Below are positions 28,751 through 37,037 of a DNA stretch of 64,000 nt, one piece after another. Position numbers and translations under genes: made by a program. This stretch comes from a virus (Duplodnaviria > Caudoviricetes): IMG/VR virus record IMGVR_UViG_3300033067_002287, positions 971 through 64,970 of that record. One strand, given 5' to 3'. Position 1 is the first letter of the stretch, and every line of letters begins with the position of its first letter. A model generated the notes under the pieces. The model was given only the letters and a program-made list of their open reading frames with translations. It searched no databases and was not told the origin of the DNA.

Positions 28751-28878
28751 AGGGGAGAAGTTAAAACAAAAACACTGTTTAAAATATTCTCTGGTAACAG
28801 TAGTTAATCTAACAGTTACATCGAAAAACAAATATAATACGAATATATCAATTGTTGGTTTGAATCCAACCTCCCCTG
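28751..28878 (+). ncRNA. tRNA-shaped Y-like RNA A (conserved stem replaces the D arm; ACG loop)
   Basis: AGGGGAG/CTCCCCT acceptor; T arm GTTGG-TTTGAAT-CCAAC; internal ATTCTCTG-GTAA-CAGTAGT...TACATCG; ATATA-ATACGAA-TATAT. Confidence 0.75.
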
Positions 28879-28924
28879 CTAAATACGAATTCTACGAATT
28901 TTTCGTATATTTATTATAAAATAT

Positions 28925-29344
28925 ATGAATATTTGTAGAGTTTGTAACCTAGAAAAAGATGAAGATGAATTTTATTGGAAAATAAAGTCCAAAAATATTC
29001 GACAATTAGAATGTAAAGTATGTACTAAAAAAATGGTTTCAAACCATTATTTAAAAAATAAAGATTATTACAAAAATAAAACAAAATACCATTCAAACTT
29101 AAAAAGAGAATGGTTAAAAAATTTTAAAAGTAATCTTAAATGTGAAAAATGTGGAGAAAATCATATAGCAACACTTGATTTTCATCATGTTAATCCTAAT
29201 AATAAAAATTTTGAAATTAGTATTTCAATTCAAAAAAATTTTTCAATAGAAAATATCAAAAAAGAAATTGAAAAATGTATTGTTTTATGTTCAAATTGCC
29301 ATAGAAAAATTCATTGGGAACAAAATAATGGATCTATAGTTTAA
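28925..29344 (+). CDS. HNH homing endonuclease (family A)
   Basis: CEKCG...LDFHH...EIEKCIVLCSNCHR. Confidence 0.88.
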   Translation: MNICRVCNLEKDEDEFYWKIKSKNIRQLECKVCTKKMVSNHYLKNKDYYKNKTKYHSNLKREWLKNFKSNLKCEKCGENHIATLDFHHVNPNNKNFEISISIQKNFSIENIKKEIEKCIVLCSNCHRKIHWEQNNGSIV

Positions 29345-29402
29345 CTGGATAAAACCTAAGTCTACGGAACTTAAATTGAAGATTCGACTTCTTCTAGATC
29401 CT
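29330..29402 (+). tRNA. tRNA-Arg(ACG)
   Basis: GGATCTA/TAGATCC; TAAGT-CTACGGA-ACTTA. Confidence 0.88.
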
Positions 29403-29404
29403 CT

Positions 29405-29884
29405 ATGAAAGTTATATTTTTAGACCACGATGGAGTAATGTGTCTGAGAGCCCAATATGGAAGTAGGTTTACAAAACCTAACAAATTTGAATTTGATGAA
29501 TTTGACGCAGAATGTATTCAAATCTTAAATGAAATATTAGGGATAATTCCAGATATAGAAATAGTAGTTTCATCAAATTGGAGAGAATACGCTTCATTGG
29601 GTATAATGAGAGAAATGTATAAAGAATATGGAATTATTAAACAACCTATTTCTTATACACCCAAAGTAAGTAGTAGAGTAGTTCAACCTAGAAACTATGG
29701 GGAAAATAGAGTAATTGAAATTAAGCATTGGTTGAATCAACACAATCTAGTTGAACCCTGGGTTGCAATTGATGATTTAGATTTGGGGGAACTAGGTAAT
29801 GGATTTCTCAGAACTAAAGAAGAATTGGGGATAAAAGAAGAAGGATTCAAAGAAAAGATAATATCTTTATTAAGTGAAAATTAG
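29405..29884 (+). CDS. HAD-family phosphatase (Swiss-army-knife RNA-repair type)
   Basis: FLDHDGV, VVSSNWR, WVAIDD. Confidence 0.82.
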   Translation: MKVIFLDHDGVMCLRAQYGSRFTKPNKFEFDEFDAECIQILNEILGIIPDIEIVVSSNWREYASLGIMREMYKEYGIIKQPISYTPKVSSRVVQPRNYGENRVIEIKHWLNQHNLVEPWVAIDDLDLGELGNGFLRTKEELGIKEEGFKEKIISLLSEN

Positions 29885-30110
29885 AGCATTTTATAGAAAG
29901 GAATTATGGGAAGTATTTTTATCATTAAAAGCAAAATTTGGAGATGATTTTACAATACATAATTTTACAGCTAGAGAAGATATTATAACAGAAAATTACT
30001 TTAAATATAAAAATAAAAATTTTATAAATTCCTTAAAAGGGGCTAAAGTAACAAAAAAGACTAAAAGAATAAATAAATATTATAACTTTTATAAAGAATT
30101 AAGAAAAATT

Positions 30111-30316
30111 TTAAAATAAGACGTCCATCGCGCACAGTAATGTGTGAGGAAACTCGCGTAATCGTTGCTTAATTTGGGAGAACTAAAATGTTCGTTTGTA
30201 CCAAAGAGGATTAAACTCAAATTTGCTTAGGTGGTGAGCAAGCCTATAATAGCATGGTCTAGAGGACTAGTTAAATGATGGACTAGATACAGAAACGCGG
30301 TTATGACTTATTTTAA
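30111..30316 (+). ncRNA. rnpB: Minimal RNase P RNA
   Basis: P1 TTAAAATAAG/CTTATTTTAA; P2 GTCCATC/GATGGAC; P3 GCACA-GTAA-TGTGT; P4 GAGGAAAC-T-CGCGT / ACAGAAACGCGGTTAT; conserved GAGCAAG and AGTTAAATGA. Confidence 0.85.
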
Positions 30317-30322
30317 TTTTAT

Positions 30323-30396
30323 GGTGGTATGGCCGAGCTGGATTTAGGCAAATGTCTGCAAAACATTTAACATCTGTTCGAATCAGATTATCACCT
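30323..30396 (+). tRNA. tRNA-Cys(GCA)
   Basis: GGTGGTA/TATCACC, U73; AATGT-CTGCAAA-ACATT. Confidence 0.9.
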
Positions 30397-30403
30397 CAAA
30401 CAT

Positions 30404-30478
30404 AGAGTAGTTGGCTAATTGGTTCAAGCCACTTGCTTTGGGAGCAAGAAGATGTCAGTTCGAGTCTGATCTACTCTA
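30404..30478 (+). tRNA. tRNA-Pro(TGG)
   Basis: AGAGTAG/CTACTCT; CTTGC-TTTGGGA-GCAAG. Confidence 0.88.
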
Positions 30479-30483
30479 CACAT

Positions 30484-30602
30484 GGGGAAGAATGCAAAAC
30501 AAACGCTATTTGAAACATTCTTCACGAAAGTGATAGTTAACTAAATAGTTACATCGCAATTAAACAGTAAATTTAACGTATGCCGAAAGGCCTTCCCCAC
30601 CA
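30484..30602 (+). ncRNA. tRNA-shaped Y-like RNA B (GTA loop)
   Basis: GGGGAAG/CTTCCCC-ACCA; ATTCTTCAC-GAAA-GTGATAGT...TACATCG; TTAAA-CAGTAAA-TTTAA; GCC-GAAA-GGC in place of the T arm. Confidence 0.75.
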
Positions 30603-30603
30603 T

Positions 30604-35087: not shown

Positions 35088-35161
35088 GCTCGGTTCGTCT
35101 AATGGTCACAGGACATTAACCTTTCCAGTTAAGTATACGGGTTCGACCCCCGTACCGAGTA
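35088..35161 (+). tRNA. tRNA-Glu(TTC)
   Basis: GCTCGGT/ACCGAGT; TTAAC-CTTTCCA-GTTAA. Confidence 0.85.
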
Positions 35162-35221
35162 CATGATGATGAATGGATTACTAATACTAATAGTAGTACT
35201 TTTAGTATTAAATTTAAAAAA

Positions 35222-35286
35222 AAGGTAGTAATGAAAGTGTTACATCGCAATTGGAGCAAAAATACACACTTTCAAGAATTCTCCTT
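35222..35286 (+). ncRNA. Minimal Y-like RNA E
   Basis: AAGGTAGTAAT-GAAAGTGT-TACATCG...ACACTTTC-AAGAATTCTCCTT. Confidence 0.7.
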
Positions 35287-35441
35287 AAATTCATTTAAAT
35301 GAGAAAACGTATTAAAGGAACAACTTGGCGAAAATATGATAAATCATTAAGATCGAAATGTGTTGAAAGGATATATTCGTCAAAATCATTTAATATTGAT
35401 TTAAATCGTTATTATTTAAAATTAATATATTTTAGTGCAAA

Positions 35442-36023
35442 ATGGAGAAACTTAAAGAAATAGATATTCATGAATTTGGAACACAAATCCAAATTGCAGG
35501 TATGTTAATGCAAAATAATGATATTACTTATGCAATAATGTTACCTAAGTCAGATGAAAATCTTGACATAGAAAAAATAAAAGTAACTCATGATGAGTGG
35601 AAAGGGTTTTTACATCAAATTGATACTTTAGAAGTAAAATTATTTCCCCACCAACCAGGAGCTAAAGTAGTAGTAAGAAAAACTCAACGCAATATTGAAC
35701 AACAAGTTTCTTGGAATGTTTATAGAAGAGATAATTTTAGATGTAGATATTGTGGAGATGATAAAGTTGCCATGACTGTTGACCATATCGTTTTATGGGA
35801 AAATATGGGAGCGTCTGTTGAAGATAATTTATTATGTGCTTGTTCAAAATGTAACAGAACAAGAGGTAATATGTTATATGAAGATTGGCTTAAAAGTGAT
35901 TACTATAAGAAAGTAATTAATTTTGGACATTGGGAAGGGCCGTCTGATAGACATCAACAAAATGTTGATGCTGGGTTAAGAGCATTGAAAGTTCCTTTAC
36001 GTATTTCTAAACGAAATAGATAG
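35442..36023 (+). CDS. HNH endonuclease domain protein
   Basis: RDNFRCRYCG...TVDHI...NLLCACSKCN. Confidence 0.85.
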   Translation: MEKLKEIDIHEFGTQIQIAGMLMQNNDITYAIMLPKSDENLDIEKIKVTHDEWKGFLHQIDTLEVKLFPHQPGAKVVVRKTQRNIEQQVSWNVYRRDNFRCRYCGDDKVAMTVDHIVLWENMGASVEDNLLCACSKCNRTRGNMLYEDWLKSDYYKKVINFGHWEGPSDRHQQNVDAGLRALKVPLRISKRNR

Positions 36024-36353
36024 AATGAGAAAAACAGCGACATGTAAAGGTATTAGAAAGTATTATGAAGCTGGTGTACATATATTTTGTGTAGTTGAAA
36101 TAATAGAAAAATATCATGTACTAAATAAAAATTATTATGACTATAAATTCAGATTTAGAATTAAAATAACAAATTTAAGGAGAAGAATAGAACTAAAAAG
36201 ATTAAATGCTAAAAAGAAGAAATCGATTTAAAGCTTATCTTGTTAGAAAAAGAGTTAAAGCAATAGGAGATATTGCATATGTATTTAATAATACAGGTCA
36301 TATATCAAATAGATCGATTTCAATTAAAACAATTAATATTTTATTAAACATAA

Positions 36354-36479
36354 GGCGGAGAAGCAAAAACAAAAACACTGTTAAGCATTCTCTAGTTAAA
36401 TAGTAGTTATAAATAGTGATACATCGCAATTAAACTCATATTTTAATGACTGTTAGTGAAAATCTAACCTCCGCCACCA
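36354..36479 (+). ncRNA. tRNA-shaped Y-like RNA C
   Basis: GGCGGAG/CTCCGCC-ACCA; ATTCTCTA-GTTAAA-TAGTAGT...TACATCG; T-like arm GTTAG-TGAAAAT-CTAAC. Confidence 0.75.
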
Positions 36480-36480
36480 T

Positions 36481-36552
36481 GGTCGATTAGTTAAAGGGCT
36501 ATAACGACGGCTTGTCACGCCGTTATTACGGGTTCGAGTCCCGTATTGACCG
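36481..36552 (+). tRNA. tRNA-Asp(GTC)
   Basis: GGTCGAT/ATTGACC, G73; ACGGC-TTGTCAC-GCCGT. Confidence 0.9.
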
Positions 36553-36555
36553 CAT

Positions 36556-36636
36556 TAGGTAGTAATAAGAGTGTTACATCGTCATTTTAATGCAAATAAA
36601 ACAAGAAGAAAAAACACACTCTCAAGTATTCTCCTA
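36556..36636 (+). ncRNA. Minimal Y-like RNA F
   Basis: TAGGTAGTAAT-AAGAGTGT-TACATCG...ACACTCTC-AAGTATTCTCCTA. Confidence 0.7.
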
Positions 36637-36828
36637 AAATATTTTAAAATGCTAGACAGAAGAAAATATTTATCCAGAAATAATAGAGTAAGAAGAAATC
36701 ACTCAGTAACAATGGGTTATTTTGAAAAAAGACAAAGACTACTTCTAGTTAGGATTTATAGTGAGGTTGATTCTAGAGAATGGATTTCATTCTGGAAAAT
36801 AGAATATTTCTTAAAAAGAATAAAAAAC

Positions 36829-36901
36829 ACTGGTGTAGCTCAAAGGTTAGAGCAACGGTCTTATAAGCCGTAGGTTGAGATCTCAGAATTCTTCACCAGT
36901 A
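36829..36901 (+). tRNA. tRNA-Ile(TAT)
   Basis: ACTGGTG/CACCAGT; ACGGT-CTTATAA-GCCGT; degenerate T loop. Confidence 0.75.
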
Positions 36902-36907
36902 CAAAAA

Positions 36908-37037
36908 GGTAATAGTAATTAAACAGTTACATCGCACTTGTAATGCAAAGGTTAACAGTTCGAATCTGTTTTTAATCGCAAGATTGAATAGCTCAATGGT
37001 AGAGCGTTAAAATAACCTGTTTAGAGTATTCTTTACC
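36908..37037 (+). ncRNA. YrlA-like Y RNA G (circularly permuted tRNA domain)
   Basis: Terminal stem GGTAATAGTAAT/ATTCTTTACC. Inside, in order: GCA-CTTGTAA-TGC, T arm AACAG-TTCGAAT-CTGTT, acceptor TTTAATC-GCAA-GATTGAA closed by a tetraloop, D arm GCTC-AATGGTA-GAGC. Confidence 0.82.

What the first reader, a model, noticed from the sequence alone, without database searches (positions are those of the whole stretch)
28832..36946. Each Y-like RNA displays an anticodon-loop mimic: a possible decoy panel
The sequence just after ACATC(G) is: ATATA-ATACGAA-TATAT (ACG, Arg; 28832); TTAAA-CAGTAAA-TTTAA (GTA, Tyr; 30560); CTGAAAA (GAA, Phe; 35046); GC-AATTGGA-GC (TTG, Gln; 35247); TCAT-ATTTTA-ATGA and CA-TTTTAA-TG (TTT, Lys-like; 36436 and 36583); GCA-CTTGTAA-TGC (TGT, Thr; 36934). 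The Arg, Tyr and Thr hairpins are convincing; the others have weak stems. Known: several anti-phage effectors are anticodon nucleases, for example PrrC on tRNA-Lys. Inference: Ro-tethered anticodon baits could titrate or trap such nucleases, or other anticodon-reading enzymes.
Basis: inference. Interest (0 to 1): 0.85.

Follow-up and report, generated by a model that had tools for sequence, protein, structure and literature searches.

The report
Phage Ro60 RNAs displaying anticodon arms
A phage encodes the RNA-binding ring protein Ro60 and seven partner-like small RNAs, four of which carry a look-alike of a tRNA anticodon arm, suggesting that they meddle with enzymes that read or attack tRNAs.

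Summary
The window is a phage contig. It holds a tRNA array, a tmRNA, a Ro60 (TROVE) gene and seven RNAs that share one handle: a bulged stem ending in GTTACATCG.

E1, E2 and E7 carry the hairpins as described. The three minimal RNAs (E3, E4, E6) have no supported hairpin.

In the four, the hairpin sits where a tRNA anticodon arm would sit relative to the T arm. Across related phage contigs, 41 of 47 non-redundant arms picked by geometry alone have U33 plus a purine at 37. Random hairpins show this in 17% of cases. Triplets come from the real anticodon set, G37 follows G36, and arms are swapped on a constant scaffold. Published YrlA lacks an anticodon loop.

So the mimicry looks real and selected. 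The decoy role against anticodon nucleases is untested. It is plausible, and a related idea was already raised in print for Salmonella YrlA.

Earlier notes of this scan describe the same kind of handle-plus-tRNA-cargo RNAs beside Ro60 in other phages. I class it as a new variant of the Y RNA kind.

The parts
28751..28878 (+). E1, permuted (open-acceptor) form. Order: acceptor 5' strand, A-rich linker, handle hairpin ending in GTTACATCG (28815-28823), anticodon-like arm 28832-28848 (ATATA-ATACGAA-TATAT, triplet ACG), 5-nt spacer, T arm 28854-28870, acceptor 3' strand plus G.
   Evidence: Sequence; MFE fold contains acceptor, arm and T arm; passes both arm rules; aligned with 16 relatives.
30484..30602 (+). 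E2, permuted form. The handle hairpin is followed by arm 30560-30576 (TTAAA-CAGTAAA-TTTAA, triplet GTA, with A rather than U at position 33) and a 5-nt spacer. A GCC-GAAA-GGC mini-hairpin replaces the T arm. The acceptor 3' strand is followed by A and an encoded CCA.
   Evidence: Sequence; alignment A1. Relatives L066 and L129 carry CTGTAAA and L053 carries CAGTAAA in the same frame. The arm is not in the MFE fold.
35017..35082 (+). E3, minimal form: handle stem plus a 19-nt loop, with no tRNA-like part and no supported hairpin.
   Evidence: family-level test of minimal elements.
35224..35284 (+). E4, minimal form: handle stem plus a short loop. Only a 2-bp GC/GC closure lies around AATTGGA.
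36354..36479 (+). E5, permuted form. The handle hairpin is followed by arm 36430-36446 (TTAAA-CTCATAT-TTTAA, triplet CAT), spacer TGACT, T arm 36452-36468 (loop TGAAAAT), and the acceptor 3' strand plus A and an encoded CCA.
Evidence: The register used here rests on homology with E2 and on the spacing to the T arm.
36558..36634 (+). E6, minimal form: handle stem plus a 34-nt A-rich loop, with no supported anticodon-like hairpin.
36908..37037 (+). E7, YrlA-like sealed form. Order: handle 5' strand, TACATCG, arm 36932-36948 (inner hairpin GCA-CTTGTAA-TGC at 36934-36946, triplet TGT), 5-nt spacer, T arm, acceptor stem closed by GCAA, D arm, handle 3' strand.
   Evidence: Sub-threshold Rfam YrlA hit at 36947-37008 (28.2 bits, gathering score 69); Rfam tRNA hit at 36917-36978 (33.2 bits); folds; unified arm rule; loop equals that of tRNA-Thr at 37883.
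41104..42693 (+). Ro60 (TROVE) gene, 529 aa: the presumed protein partner of the handle.
   Evidence: Pfam TROVE E 2.3e-10; full-length match to Thermus phage phiLo Ro60 structures 9KOP/9L5Y, E 4.9e-19; 17 relatives in viral contigs with handle RNAs next to the gene.

Best explanation
These are Y-type partner RNAs of the phage's Ro60 protein. Each is built from one conserved handle: a bulged stem whose upper end runs into GTTAC(A/T)TCG, opposite an A-rich strand.

In four of the seven (E1, E2, E5, E7) the handle is fused to a tRNA-like body. Unlike published YrlA, this body keeps an anticodon arm in the normal tRNA register: a 17-nt arm followed by about 5 nt and then the T arm. The arm is a swappable cassette on a constant scaffold. 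Its 7-nt loop is kept in the canonical form Y32-U33-NNN-R37-A38, with triplets drawn from the real anticodon set.

The most likely working is as follows. The RNAs are cut out of the tRNA-array transcript and bind Ro60 through the handle. They then present specific anticodon loops to proteins that read anticodon loops. The first candidates are host tRNA-targeting nucleases, with the RNAs acting as competing substrates or inhibitors. Ro60 would stabilise the RNA or bring in a partner nuclease or repair enzyme.

Shown here, by computation: the shared handle, the neighbourhood and co-occurrence with Ro60, the position of the arm, the loop signature, and the cassette behaviour. Inferred: Ro60 binding, processing, and the target of the display.

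My odds for each step: mimicry real and selected, about 0.85; Ro60 partner, about 0.75; bait or competitor for anticodon-reading host enzymes, about 0.35.
For: Handle and Ro60:
- The extended motif gives 8 matches against 0.08 expected.
- The Ro60 ORF lies on the same strand, 4-12 kb downstream.
- In 17 loci fetched through the Ro60 protein, handle RNAs lie within about 1 kb of the gene in most.
- In records fetched through the DNA motif alone, 12 of 18 with 3 or more elements hold a TROVE gene. All 6 of the 6 that are at least 60% complete do. The control set without a handle partner strand gives 3 of 41.
- RNAalifold on 17 permuted members predicts the acceptor, both handle helices and the T arm. 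15 of its 19 pairs show compensatory changes.

Arm geometry:
- Of 54 non-redundant elements with a T arm 12-60 nt after the motif, 38 have a 7-nt-loop arm ending 3-6 nt before the T arm. E1, E5 and E7 are among them.

Loop signature:
- Of 47 non-redundant arms chosen only by geometry and stem pairing, T33 is found in 42, R37 in 44, both in 41 and A34 in 2. In 201,102 random hairpins from the same contigs the shares are 33%, 51%, 17% and 32%.
- Without the cloverleaf class, both features occur in 24 of 28.
- Canonical tRNAs of the same contigs: T33 in 606 of 626, R37 in 609 of 626.
- Triplets fall in the 30 common anticodons in 42 of 47 arms, against 50% in the null.
- The exact 7-nt loop is shared with a canonical tRNA in 25 of 47 arms. 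Permuted loop contexts give 18.9 +/- 2.0, and 7 of 2000 permutations reach 25.
- G37 follows G36 in 6 of 8 arms, against 3 of 39 otherwise.

Cassette behaviour:
- In 15 pairs with at least 83% identical T arm plus acceptor strand, differences per site are 0.13 in the flank, 0.53 in the arm stem and 0.71 in the triplet.
- Arm stems are no closer to canonical tRNAs of the same anticodon than to other tRNAs. The loops are therefore not recent copies of the phage's own tRNA genes.

Literature:
- YrlA 'lacks the anticodon loop' and a free CCA end (preprint 10.1101/312249, passages).
- Hughes 2020 suggest that the YrlA tRNA-like domain may competitively inhibit an anticodon nuclease (PMC7790460, passages).
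- A Ro60-like protein of phage Bas63, encoded next to its tRNA genes, counters a defence system (preprint PMC11482910, passages).
Against: - There is no evidence of expression, processing, Ro60 binding or any nuclease interaction.
- Three of the seven window RNAs have no arm, and minimal members of the family show none above chance.
- The arm stems are A-U rich. The MFE folds recover the arm only in E1.
- 16 of the 54 T-arm elements fail the unified rule. Under the class rules there were 17 non-redundant failures (9, 6 and 2). Two of the 11 arms picked after the D arm look off-target.
- The data set was collected with my own regular expressions and rules, and the homologs are related, so the binomial p-values overstate independence.
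- The handle does not carry the published Ro60-site motif: CGAA follows in only 21 of 150 elements.
- No Rfam family matches the handle.
- The repertoire is broad (23 triplets), which argues against any one known nuclease.
- RtcB is absent from 5 of 5 complete relatives, and an Rnl2-type ligase is present in only 3 of 5.
Confidence: 0.45

Rival explanations
1. Tether only. As in the Ro60-Y RNA-PNPase particle, the tRNA-like body serves merely to bind a tRNA-shape-recognising effector or to resist nucleases. The anticodon loops are leftovers of the tRNA genes from which the bodies arose, and nothing reads them.
For: Precedent: YrlA and Yrn1 tether Ro60 to PNPase, and the YrlA elbow is the conserved part (Chen 2014, sections 5 and 10; preprint 10.1101/312249). 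Phage phiLo Ro60 with its Yrl RNAs binds host PNPase (PMC12135203, passages). Three window RNAs work, if at all, without any arm.
Against: The arm is kept in all four topologies, whereas the D arm or the open acceptor end can be lost. The loop signature holds in 24 of 28 arms of non-cloverleaf forms, although the stems have diverged completely from canonical tRNAs. Context rules specific to the triplet, such as G37 after G36 and exact loop matches, are kept.
Confidence: 0.2
2. Working tRNAs with a Ro60 handle. The open-acceptor forms (E1, E2, E5), and the cloverleaf forms of relatives, are charged and decode. The handle recruits Ro60 for folding, storage or protection.
For: The acceptor stem is a 7-bp open helix with a discriminator base. 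CCA is encoded in E2 and E5 and in 9 of 17 permuted members. ARAGORN calls the enclosed cloverleaves of relatives as tRNAs. Neither ARAGORN nor Rfam calls a tRNA with anticodon CAT in the window's array, while E5 carries CAT.
Against: There is no D arm; a roughly 60-nt handle stands in its place. The scaffold stays constant while the arm is swapped. The discriminator is A in 13 of 17 members whatever the triplet, including Ser, His and Cys triplets, whose tRNAs, as I recall, use G73, C73 and U73. Sealed forms such as E7 cannot be charged yet keep the same loops. In 5 of 6 cases looked at, the enclosed cloverleaf duplicates a canonical tRNA of the same contig.
Confidence: 0.15
3. Chance hairpins in A/T-rich loops, with no anticodon mimicry at all.
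For: The stems are weak and the MFE folds mostly ignore them. For E3, E4 and E6 this is my reading.
Against: For the tRNA-framed members, the family-level enrichment over 201,102 random hairpins, the fixed register before the T arm and the compensatory changes in all five stem pairs exclude it.
Confidence: 0.03

Closest known systems
YrlA (Rfam RF02553), the tRNA-like Y RNA of Salmonella, Mycobacterium and mycobacteriophages (Chen 2014, PMC4201824; preprint 10.1101/312249)
   Same: It is encoded on the same strand near a Ro60 gene. It has a terminal stem plus a tRNA-like body with T arm, sealed acceptor stem and D arm, as in E7. It is thought to derive from tRNA genes.
   Different: The published YrlA has no anticodon loop and no free CCA end. 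The handle here lacks the GNCGAAN0-1G motif. The Rfam model scores only 28 bits on E7 and nothing on the other six. Here there are seven copies, spread through a tRNA array, in several topologies.
Deinococcus radiodurans Yrn1
   Same: Chen 2014 model it with a possible 'anticodon arm' of 5 bp.
   Different: That loop has 6 nt and is a single case. There is no panel and no variable triplets.
Thermus phage phiLo Ro60 with Yrl1 and Yrl2 (PMC12135203)
   Same: A phage Ro60, which is the closest solved structure to the window's protein (E 4.9e-19), with two Y-like RNAs encoded upstream.
   Different: In the passages I read, those RNAs are stem-bulge-stem with a CGAA motif. No tRNA body or anticodon arm is described.
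Phage tRNA arrays that outrun tRNA-targeting defences (van den Berg 2023, PMC10264068; Azam 2024, PMC11555353; search listing only)
   Same: The genomic setting is the same, a large phage tRNA array, and so is the presumed conflict over anticodon loops.
   Different: Those are working tRNAs that replace cleaved ones. The RNAs here cannot be canonical tRNAs and carry a Ro60-type handle.
tmRNA and viral tRNA-like structures such as TYMV TLS
   Same: They are tRNA mimics that include an anticodon-domain mimic and a CCA end.
   Different: Their partners and functions differ. There is no Ro60 handle and no panel of different anticodons.

Membership tests
Y RNA / YrlA (Rfam RF02553) | Encoded close to a Ro60 (TROVE) gene, on the same strand | tested here: met
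   The window elements lie at 28.8-37.0 kb and the Ro60 gene at 41104-42693, all on the + strand. In relatives the elements lie within about 1 kb of the gene. Co-occurrence is 12 of 18 records with 3 or more elements, and 6 of 6 of those at least 60% complete.
Y RNA / YrlA (Rfam RF02553) | Reaches the family's covariance-model gathering score | tested here: not met
   The best hit is 28.2 bits against a gathering score of 69. It covers only the tRNA-like core of E7 (model positions 24-84). The other six have no hit.
Y RNA / YrlA (Rfam RF02553) | Conserved Ro60-site motif (GNCGAAN0-1G, or CGAA in an internal bulge) | tested here: not met
   The handle motif is GAGTTAC(A/T)TCG. CGAA follows in 21 of 150 elements, and in the window only in E1. 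Only the CG is shared.
Y RNA / YrlA (Rfam RF02553) | Stem formed by the RNA's 5' and 3' ends, with a bulge | tested here: met
   This holds for E3, E4, E6 and E7. In E1, E2 and E5 the same two strands form a hairpin, that is, the permuted form. The helices covary.
Y RNA / YrlA (Rfam RF02553) | Bound by Ro60 | not testable with these tools
   Needs binding assays or immunoprecipitation.
tRNA (Rfam RF00005) | Cloverleaf with open acceptor stem, D, anticodon and T arms | tested here: not met
   ARAGORN calls none of the seven. Rfam tRNA scores 33.2 bits on part of E7 only. E1, E2 and E5 lack a D arm, and E7 has a sealed acceptor stem.
tRNA (Rfam RF00005) | Anticodon loop of 7 nt with U33 and a purine at 37, on a 5-bp stem about 5 nt before the T arm | tested here: met
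   This holds for E1, E5 and E7. E2 meets it except for A33 and a mini-hairpin in place of the T arm. E3, E4 and E6 do not meet it.
tRNA (Rfam RF00005) | Aminoacylation and decoding | not testable with these tools
   The discriminator does not follow the triplet: it is A in 13 of 17 permuted members. That argues against charging but is not a test.

The most novel reading that the evidence does not exclude
The RNAs are sentinels rather than passive decoys. Each one holds Ro60 in a gated state through the handle and offers one anticodon loop as bait. When a host anticodon nuclease cuts the bait, the RNA falls apart. In the sealed forms the bait's stem includes the CG of the handle motif. Ro60 is then released to act on damaged tRNAs, together with a partner exonuclease or ligase. 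The arm cassettes are swapped between related phages under arms-race selection, which gives each phage its own panel of detectors.
Probability: 0.12. Interest if true: 0.9.

Novelty: new variant of a known kind. Interest (0 to 1): 0.72.

Why it matters
What the tRNA-like domain of bacterial Y RNAs does has been open since 2014. This is a large, unannotated branch of the family. The conserved Ro60-type handle carries an anticodon arm that is kept in every topology and swapped like a cassette. That points to the anticodon loop as the working part.

It also makes the question testable with a defined panel of loops: ACG, GTA, CAT and TGT in this phage. If the loops engage host tRNA-targeting nucleases, this would be a new kind of phage counter-defence. 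It would stand beside tRNA replacement and tRNA repair.

It would also affect annotation. Some 'tRNA genes' called in phage arrays would in fact be Y-type RNAs.

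Tried and rejected
- Rfam at gathering and at permissive thresholds has no family for the handle. A second sub-threshold YrlA hit at 28168-28279 spans two ordinary tRNA-Lys genes, and I take it as spurious.
- Single-sequence folding does not decide between alternative A-U hairpins, so I relied on comparison.
- MAFFT alignments A1 and A2 put the arms of some sequences out of register. I counted pairs only on the 20 sequences of equal length (A3). Pairing in that set is partly by construction, because arms were chosen for at least 4 of 5 pairs.
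- An automated search for the partner strand of the handle was noisy, and I replaced it with a stricter script.
- Expression: no RNA holder was listed among the public runs. I did not lay reads.
- RtcB was not found in 5 of 5 complete relatives. A CCA-adding enzyme was found in 1 of 5.
- blastn of E1 against named phages gave one short 45-bit match, which I take as chance.
- I considered E7's hairpin as the 'variable arm' of YrlA, as in Chen 2014. I now prefer the anticodon-arm reading, because a 17-nt arm with 4 of 5 pairs ends exactly 5 nt before the T arm. Only a structure would settle this.
- I considered that the arms are recent copies of the phage's own tRNAs. I rejected this because of the stem comparison. 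Copies of host tRNAs could not be tested, because the host is unknown.
- Papers PMC10870794 and PMC6047535 are not held. Supplements of Chen 2014, which list the phage YrlA RNAs, were not opened. They may show phage members that bear on novelty.
- My statement that anticodon-bearing phage Y RNAs are not in print rests on searches only.

Full report
WHAT IS THERE

The window is almost all of a 64,970-base IMG/VR virus record that CheckV puts at 39% complete. Between 27.9 and 40 kb lies a + strand array of tRNA genes: 25 Rfam tRNA matches, one of them part of E7, and 23 ARAGORN calls, interspersed with HNH-type ORFs. Downstream follow, in order:
- an R2K ATP-grasp gene;
- a 529-aa TROVE/Ro60 gene at 41104-42693 (Pfam E 2.3e-10), with a full-length match to the Ro60 of Thermus phage phiLo, PDB 9KOP/9L5Y, E 4.9e-19;
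- an RNase H-like gene;
- a tmRNA at 43573-43848;
- a MoxR-type ATPase and a VWA/DUF2201 gene.

A HAD domain of the 'Swiss army knife' RNA-repair type lies inside the array at 29405-29884.

THE SEVEN RNAS

TACATCG occurs seven times, always on the + strand. With its upstream partner (TAGT-N9-16-TACATCG) there are 8 matches, which is 7 elements, against 0.08 expected. All seven share a two-strand handle. One strand reads RGTAGT...AGT-TACATCG. The other reads ACAC..(N)..ATTCTC and is preceded by an A-rich stretch. Three arrangements occur.
- E3, E4 and E6 are the bare handle closed by a short loop.
- E7 has the order handle 5' strand, hairpin, T arm, acceptor stem sealed by GCAA, D arm, handle 3' strand. 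This is the YrlA layout. The Rfam YrlA model touches its core at 28.2 bits, far below the gathering score of 69.
- E1, E2 and E5 are turned inside out. An open G-rich acceptor stem frames the RNA, and the handle forms a hairpin where a D arm would be. It is followed by a small hairpin, a 5-nt spacer, a T arm (a GAAA mini-hairpin in E2) and the acceptor 3' strand. In E2 and E5 that strand is followed by A-CCA.

CHECK OF THE OBSERVATION

E5 and E2, however, are identical through TACATCG-CAA-TTAAA-C. Both can form TTAAA/TTTAA around a 7-nt loop that ends 5 nt before the next helix. In E5 that loop is CTCATAT. I therefore read E5 as CAT, not TTT.

E3, E4 and E6 offer only 2-3 base pairs. Minimal members of the family show a 3-bp/7-nt hairpin at the motif in 15 of 64 cases, and only 3 of those 15 have U33 plus R37. 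Both figures are at the chance level. 'Each' is therefore wrong: it is four of the seven.

WHERE THE HAIRPIN SITS

In E1 and E5 the 17-nt arm, the 5-nt spacer, the 17-nt T arm and the 7-nt acceptor strand follow one another exactly as positions 27-72 of a tRNA. In E7 the 17-mer TCGCA-CTTGTAA-TGCAA, with 4 of 5 pairs, also ends 5 nt before the T arm. E7 therefore reads as a tRNA opened between the D and anticodon arms, with the handle growing out of that gap.

Relatives add two further layouts. In one, the handle stem encloses a whole cloverleaf that ARAGORN calls a tRNA. In the other, a sealed form carries the 5-bp arm after the D arm. Across all the layouts the D arm or the open acceptor end can be missing. 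The T arm is nearly always present, though a mini-hairpin replaces it in E2, L008 and L066. The anticodon-like arm is always present.

FAMILY-LEVEL TEST

I collected relatives in two independent ways:
- 17 loci through the Ro60 protein, at 55-70% identity;

A script found 220 handle motifs with a matching partner strand in 92 loci. Of these, 189 are non-redundant and 77 have a T arm. Arms were then chosen by position and stem pairing only, never by loop content. This gave 47 non-redundant arms: 19 in cloverleaf forms, 9 in open-acceptor forms, 8 in E7-like forms and 11 after the D arm. Seventeen non-redundant elements failed the rules, and two of the 11 look off-target.

Loop content of the arms, compared with random hairpins and with real tRNAs:

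| Feature | 47 arms | 201,102 random hairpins, same contigs | 629 unique canonical tRNAs |
|---|---|---|---|
| T33 | 42 | 33% | 606 of 626 |
| R37 | 44 | 51% | 609 of 626 |
| Both | 41 | 17% | not counted |
| A38 | 35 | 32% | 449 of 626 |
| A34 | 2 | 32% | 16 of 626 |

Leaving out the cloverleaf class, which might be plain tRNAs, both features occur in 24 of 28 arms. A single unified rule (inner three pairs formed, 7-nt loop, 3-6 nt before the T arm) finds an arm in 38 of 54 elements. Of those 38, 34 have both features.

Further points:
- The triplet belongs to the 30 common anticodons of these phages in 42 of 47 arms, against 50% in the null.
- The whole 7-nt loop equals that of some canonical tRNA in 25 of 47 arms. 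Permuted contexts give 18.9 +/- 2.0, and 7 of 2000 permutations reach 25.
- G37 follows G36 in 6 of 8 arms, against 3 of 39 otherwise.
- On the 20 arm-plus-T-arm sequences of equal length, all five arm pairs change on both sides. The covariation score is 0.88, against 0.26 in shuffles. Pairing itself was a selection criterion there.

The homologs are related, so the p-values are not exact. The 47 arms do carry 23 different triplets.

CASSETTE BEHAVIOUR

In 15 pairs of elements whose T arm plus acceptor strand are at least 83% identical, differences per site are:
- 0.13 in that scaffold;
- 0.53 in the arm stem;
- 0.33 at positions 32, 33, 37 and 38;
- 0.71 in the triplet.

One slot shows this directly. 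Between tRNA-Trp and tRNA-Arg the window holds ACG (E1), while relative L003 holds GCA.

The arm stems are no more like those of canonical tRNAs with the same anticodon than like those of other tRNAs. Mean identity is 2.4-3.3 of 10 positions, and only 1 of 38 reaches 9 of 10. The loops are therefore not recent copies of the phage's own tRNA genes. They are kept anticodon-like while everything around them drifts or is exchanged.

In the window, E7's loop equals that of tRNA-Thr. E2 differs from tRNA-Tyr only by A33. E1 differs from tRNA-Arg(ACG) at positions 32 and 37.

LINK TO RO60

This link is circumstantial. In the Ro60-derived loci the handle RNAs mostly sit just upstream of the gene. In the motif-derived records, the share holding a TROVE gene rises with the number of elements:
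- 12 of 18 records with 3 or more elements;
- 6 of 6 of those that are at least 60% complete;
- 3 of 41 records where the motif had no partner strand, one of which shares its contig with a positive locus.

The handle helices covary. The handle does not match the published Ro60-site motif: CGAA follows in 21 of 150 elements.

HOW IT MOST LIKELY WORKS

The RNAs lie in a tRNA array and are framed by tRNA-like ends. I infer that the tRNA-processing enzymes release them, that the handle binds Ro60, and that the arm is offered to something that reads anticodon loops.

tRNA cleavage is a common defence, and phage tRNAs are a known counter (search listing). Hughes 2020 already suggested that YrlA's tRNA-like domain might competitively inhibit an anticodon nuclease. 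A Ro60-like protein of phage Bas63, next to its tRNA genes, counters a defence system.

Nothing here tests that role. The breadth of the repertoire does not point to any one enzyme, and repair ligases are not constant companions. I put the bait or competitor reading at about 0.35.

The rivals are a tether for a tRNA-shape-binding effector with unread loops, and chargeable tRNA-like RNAs. The constant A73 under changing triplets (13 of 17) and the sealed forms argue against the chargeable reading.

COMPARISON AND NOVELTY

This is the known Ro60/Y RNA partnership in a form that I did not find described. Published YrlA lacks the anticodon loop and the CCA end. Yrn1 has one doubtful 6-nt 'anticodon loop'. 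The phiLo Yrl RNAs are stem-bulge-stem. Five literature searches gave no paper on Y-type RNAs with anticodon arms in phages. The supplements of Chen 2014 were not seen.

Earlier notes of this scan report the same kind of thing in other phages: one handle with swappable tRNA-derived cargo beside Ro60. I did not check those notes.

LIMITS

There are no expression data: no RNA holder was listed. There is no binding test and the host is unknown. The element catalogue rests on my own scripts.

Noticed in passing
window 37965-38038: This tRNA has the anticodon loop TTCTAAC, that is anticodon CUA, an amber-suppressor type. ARAGORN leaves it unnamed and Rfam scores it at 39.8 bits.
   Followed up: no
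window 27.9-40 kb: Neither ARAGORN nor Rfam calls a tRNA with anticodon CAT (Met, fMet or Ile2) in the array, whereas relatives L003 and L005 have two. The only CAT loop in this stretch is that of E5.
   Followed up: partly
window 30678-30752 and 34320-34412: Two tRNA-like RNAs have a good acceptor stem and T arm but an abnormal body. The second carries a CTGATAA (GAT) arm and stands where relatives have tRNA-Ile(GAT). Neither is called by ARAGORN or by the Rfam tRNA model.
   Followed up: no
window 33916-34143 and 30111-30316: Two longer, G+C-richer non-coding stretches lie between tRNA genes. The first is closed by a long terminal helix. Neither has an Rfam match, even at E up to 10. First-reader notes call them an unknown RNA and a reduced RNase P RNA.
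   Followed up: no
L053 (- strand, element at 1558), L111:9298, L129:7778: A further handle-linked cargo type has a G+C-rich piece (GCCGG-TG.C-CG.A..GG) before the T arm and no 7-nt-loop arm. It fails my arm rules and I did not interpret it.
   Followed up: no
E2 (window 30565-30571) and L053: Two GTA arms carry A at position 33 (CAGTAAA). The related L129 and L066 have the canonical CTGTAAA. U33 is next to the usual cleavage site of some anticodon nucleases (recalled), so this may matter for a bait that is not cut.
   Followed up: no
record G048 (locus L033), about 99,980-100,573: An Rnl2-type RNA ligase gene lies about 4 kb downstream of the Ro60 gene in a complete 173-kb relative. Similar ligase matches occur in 3 of 5 complete relatives.
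   Followed up: partly
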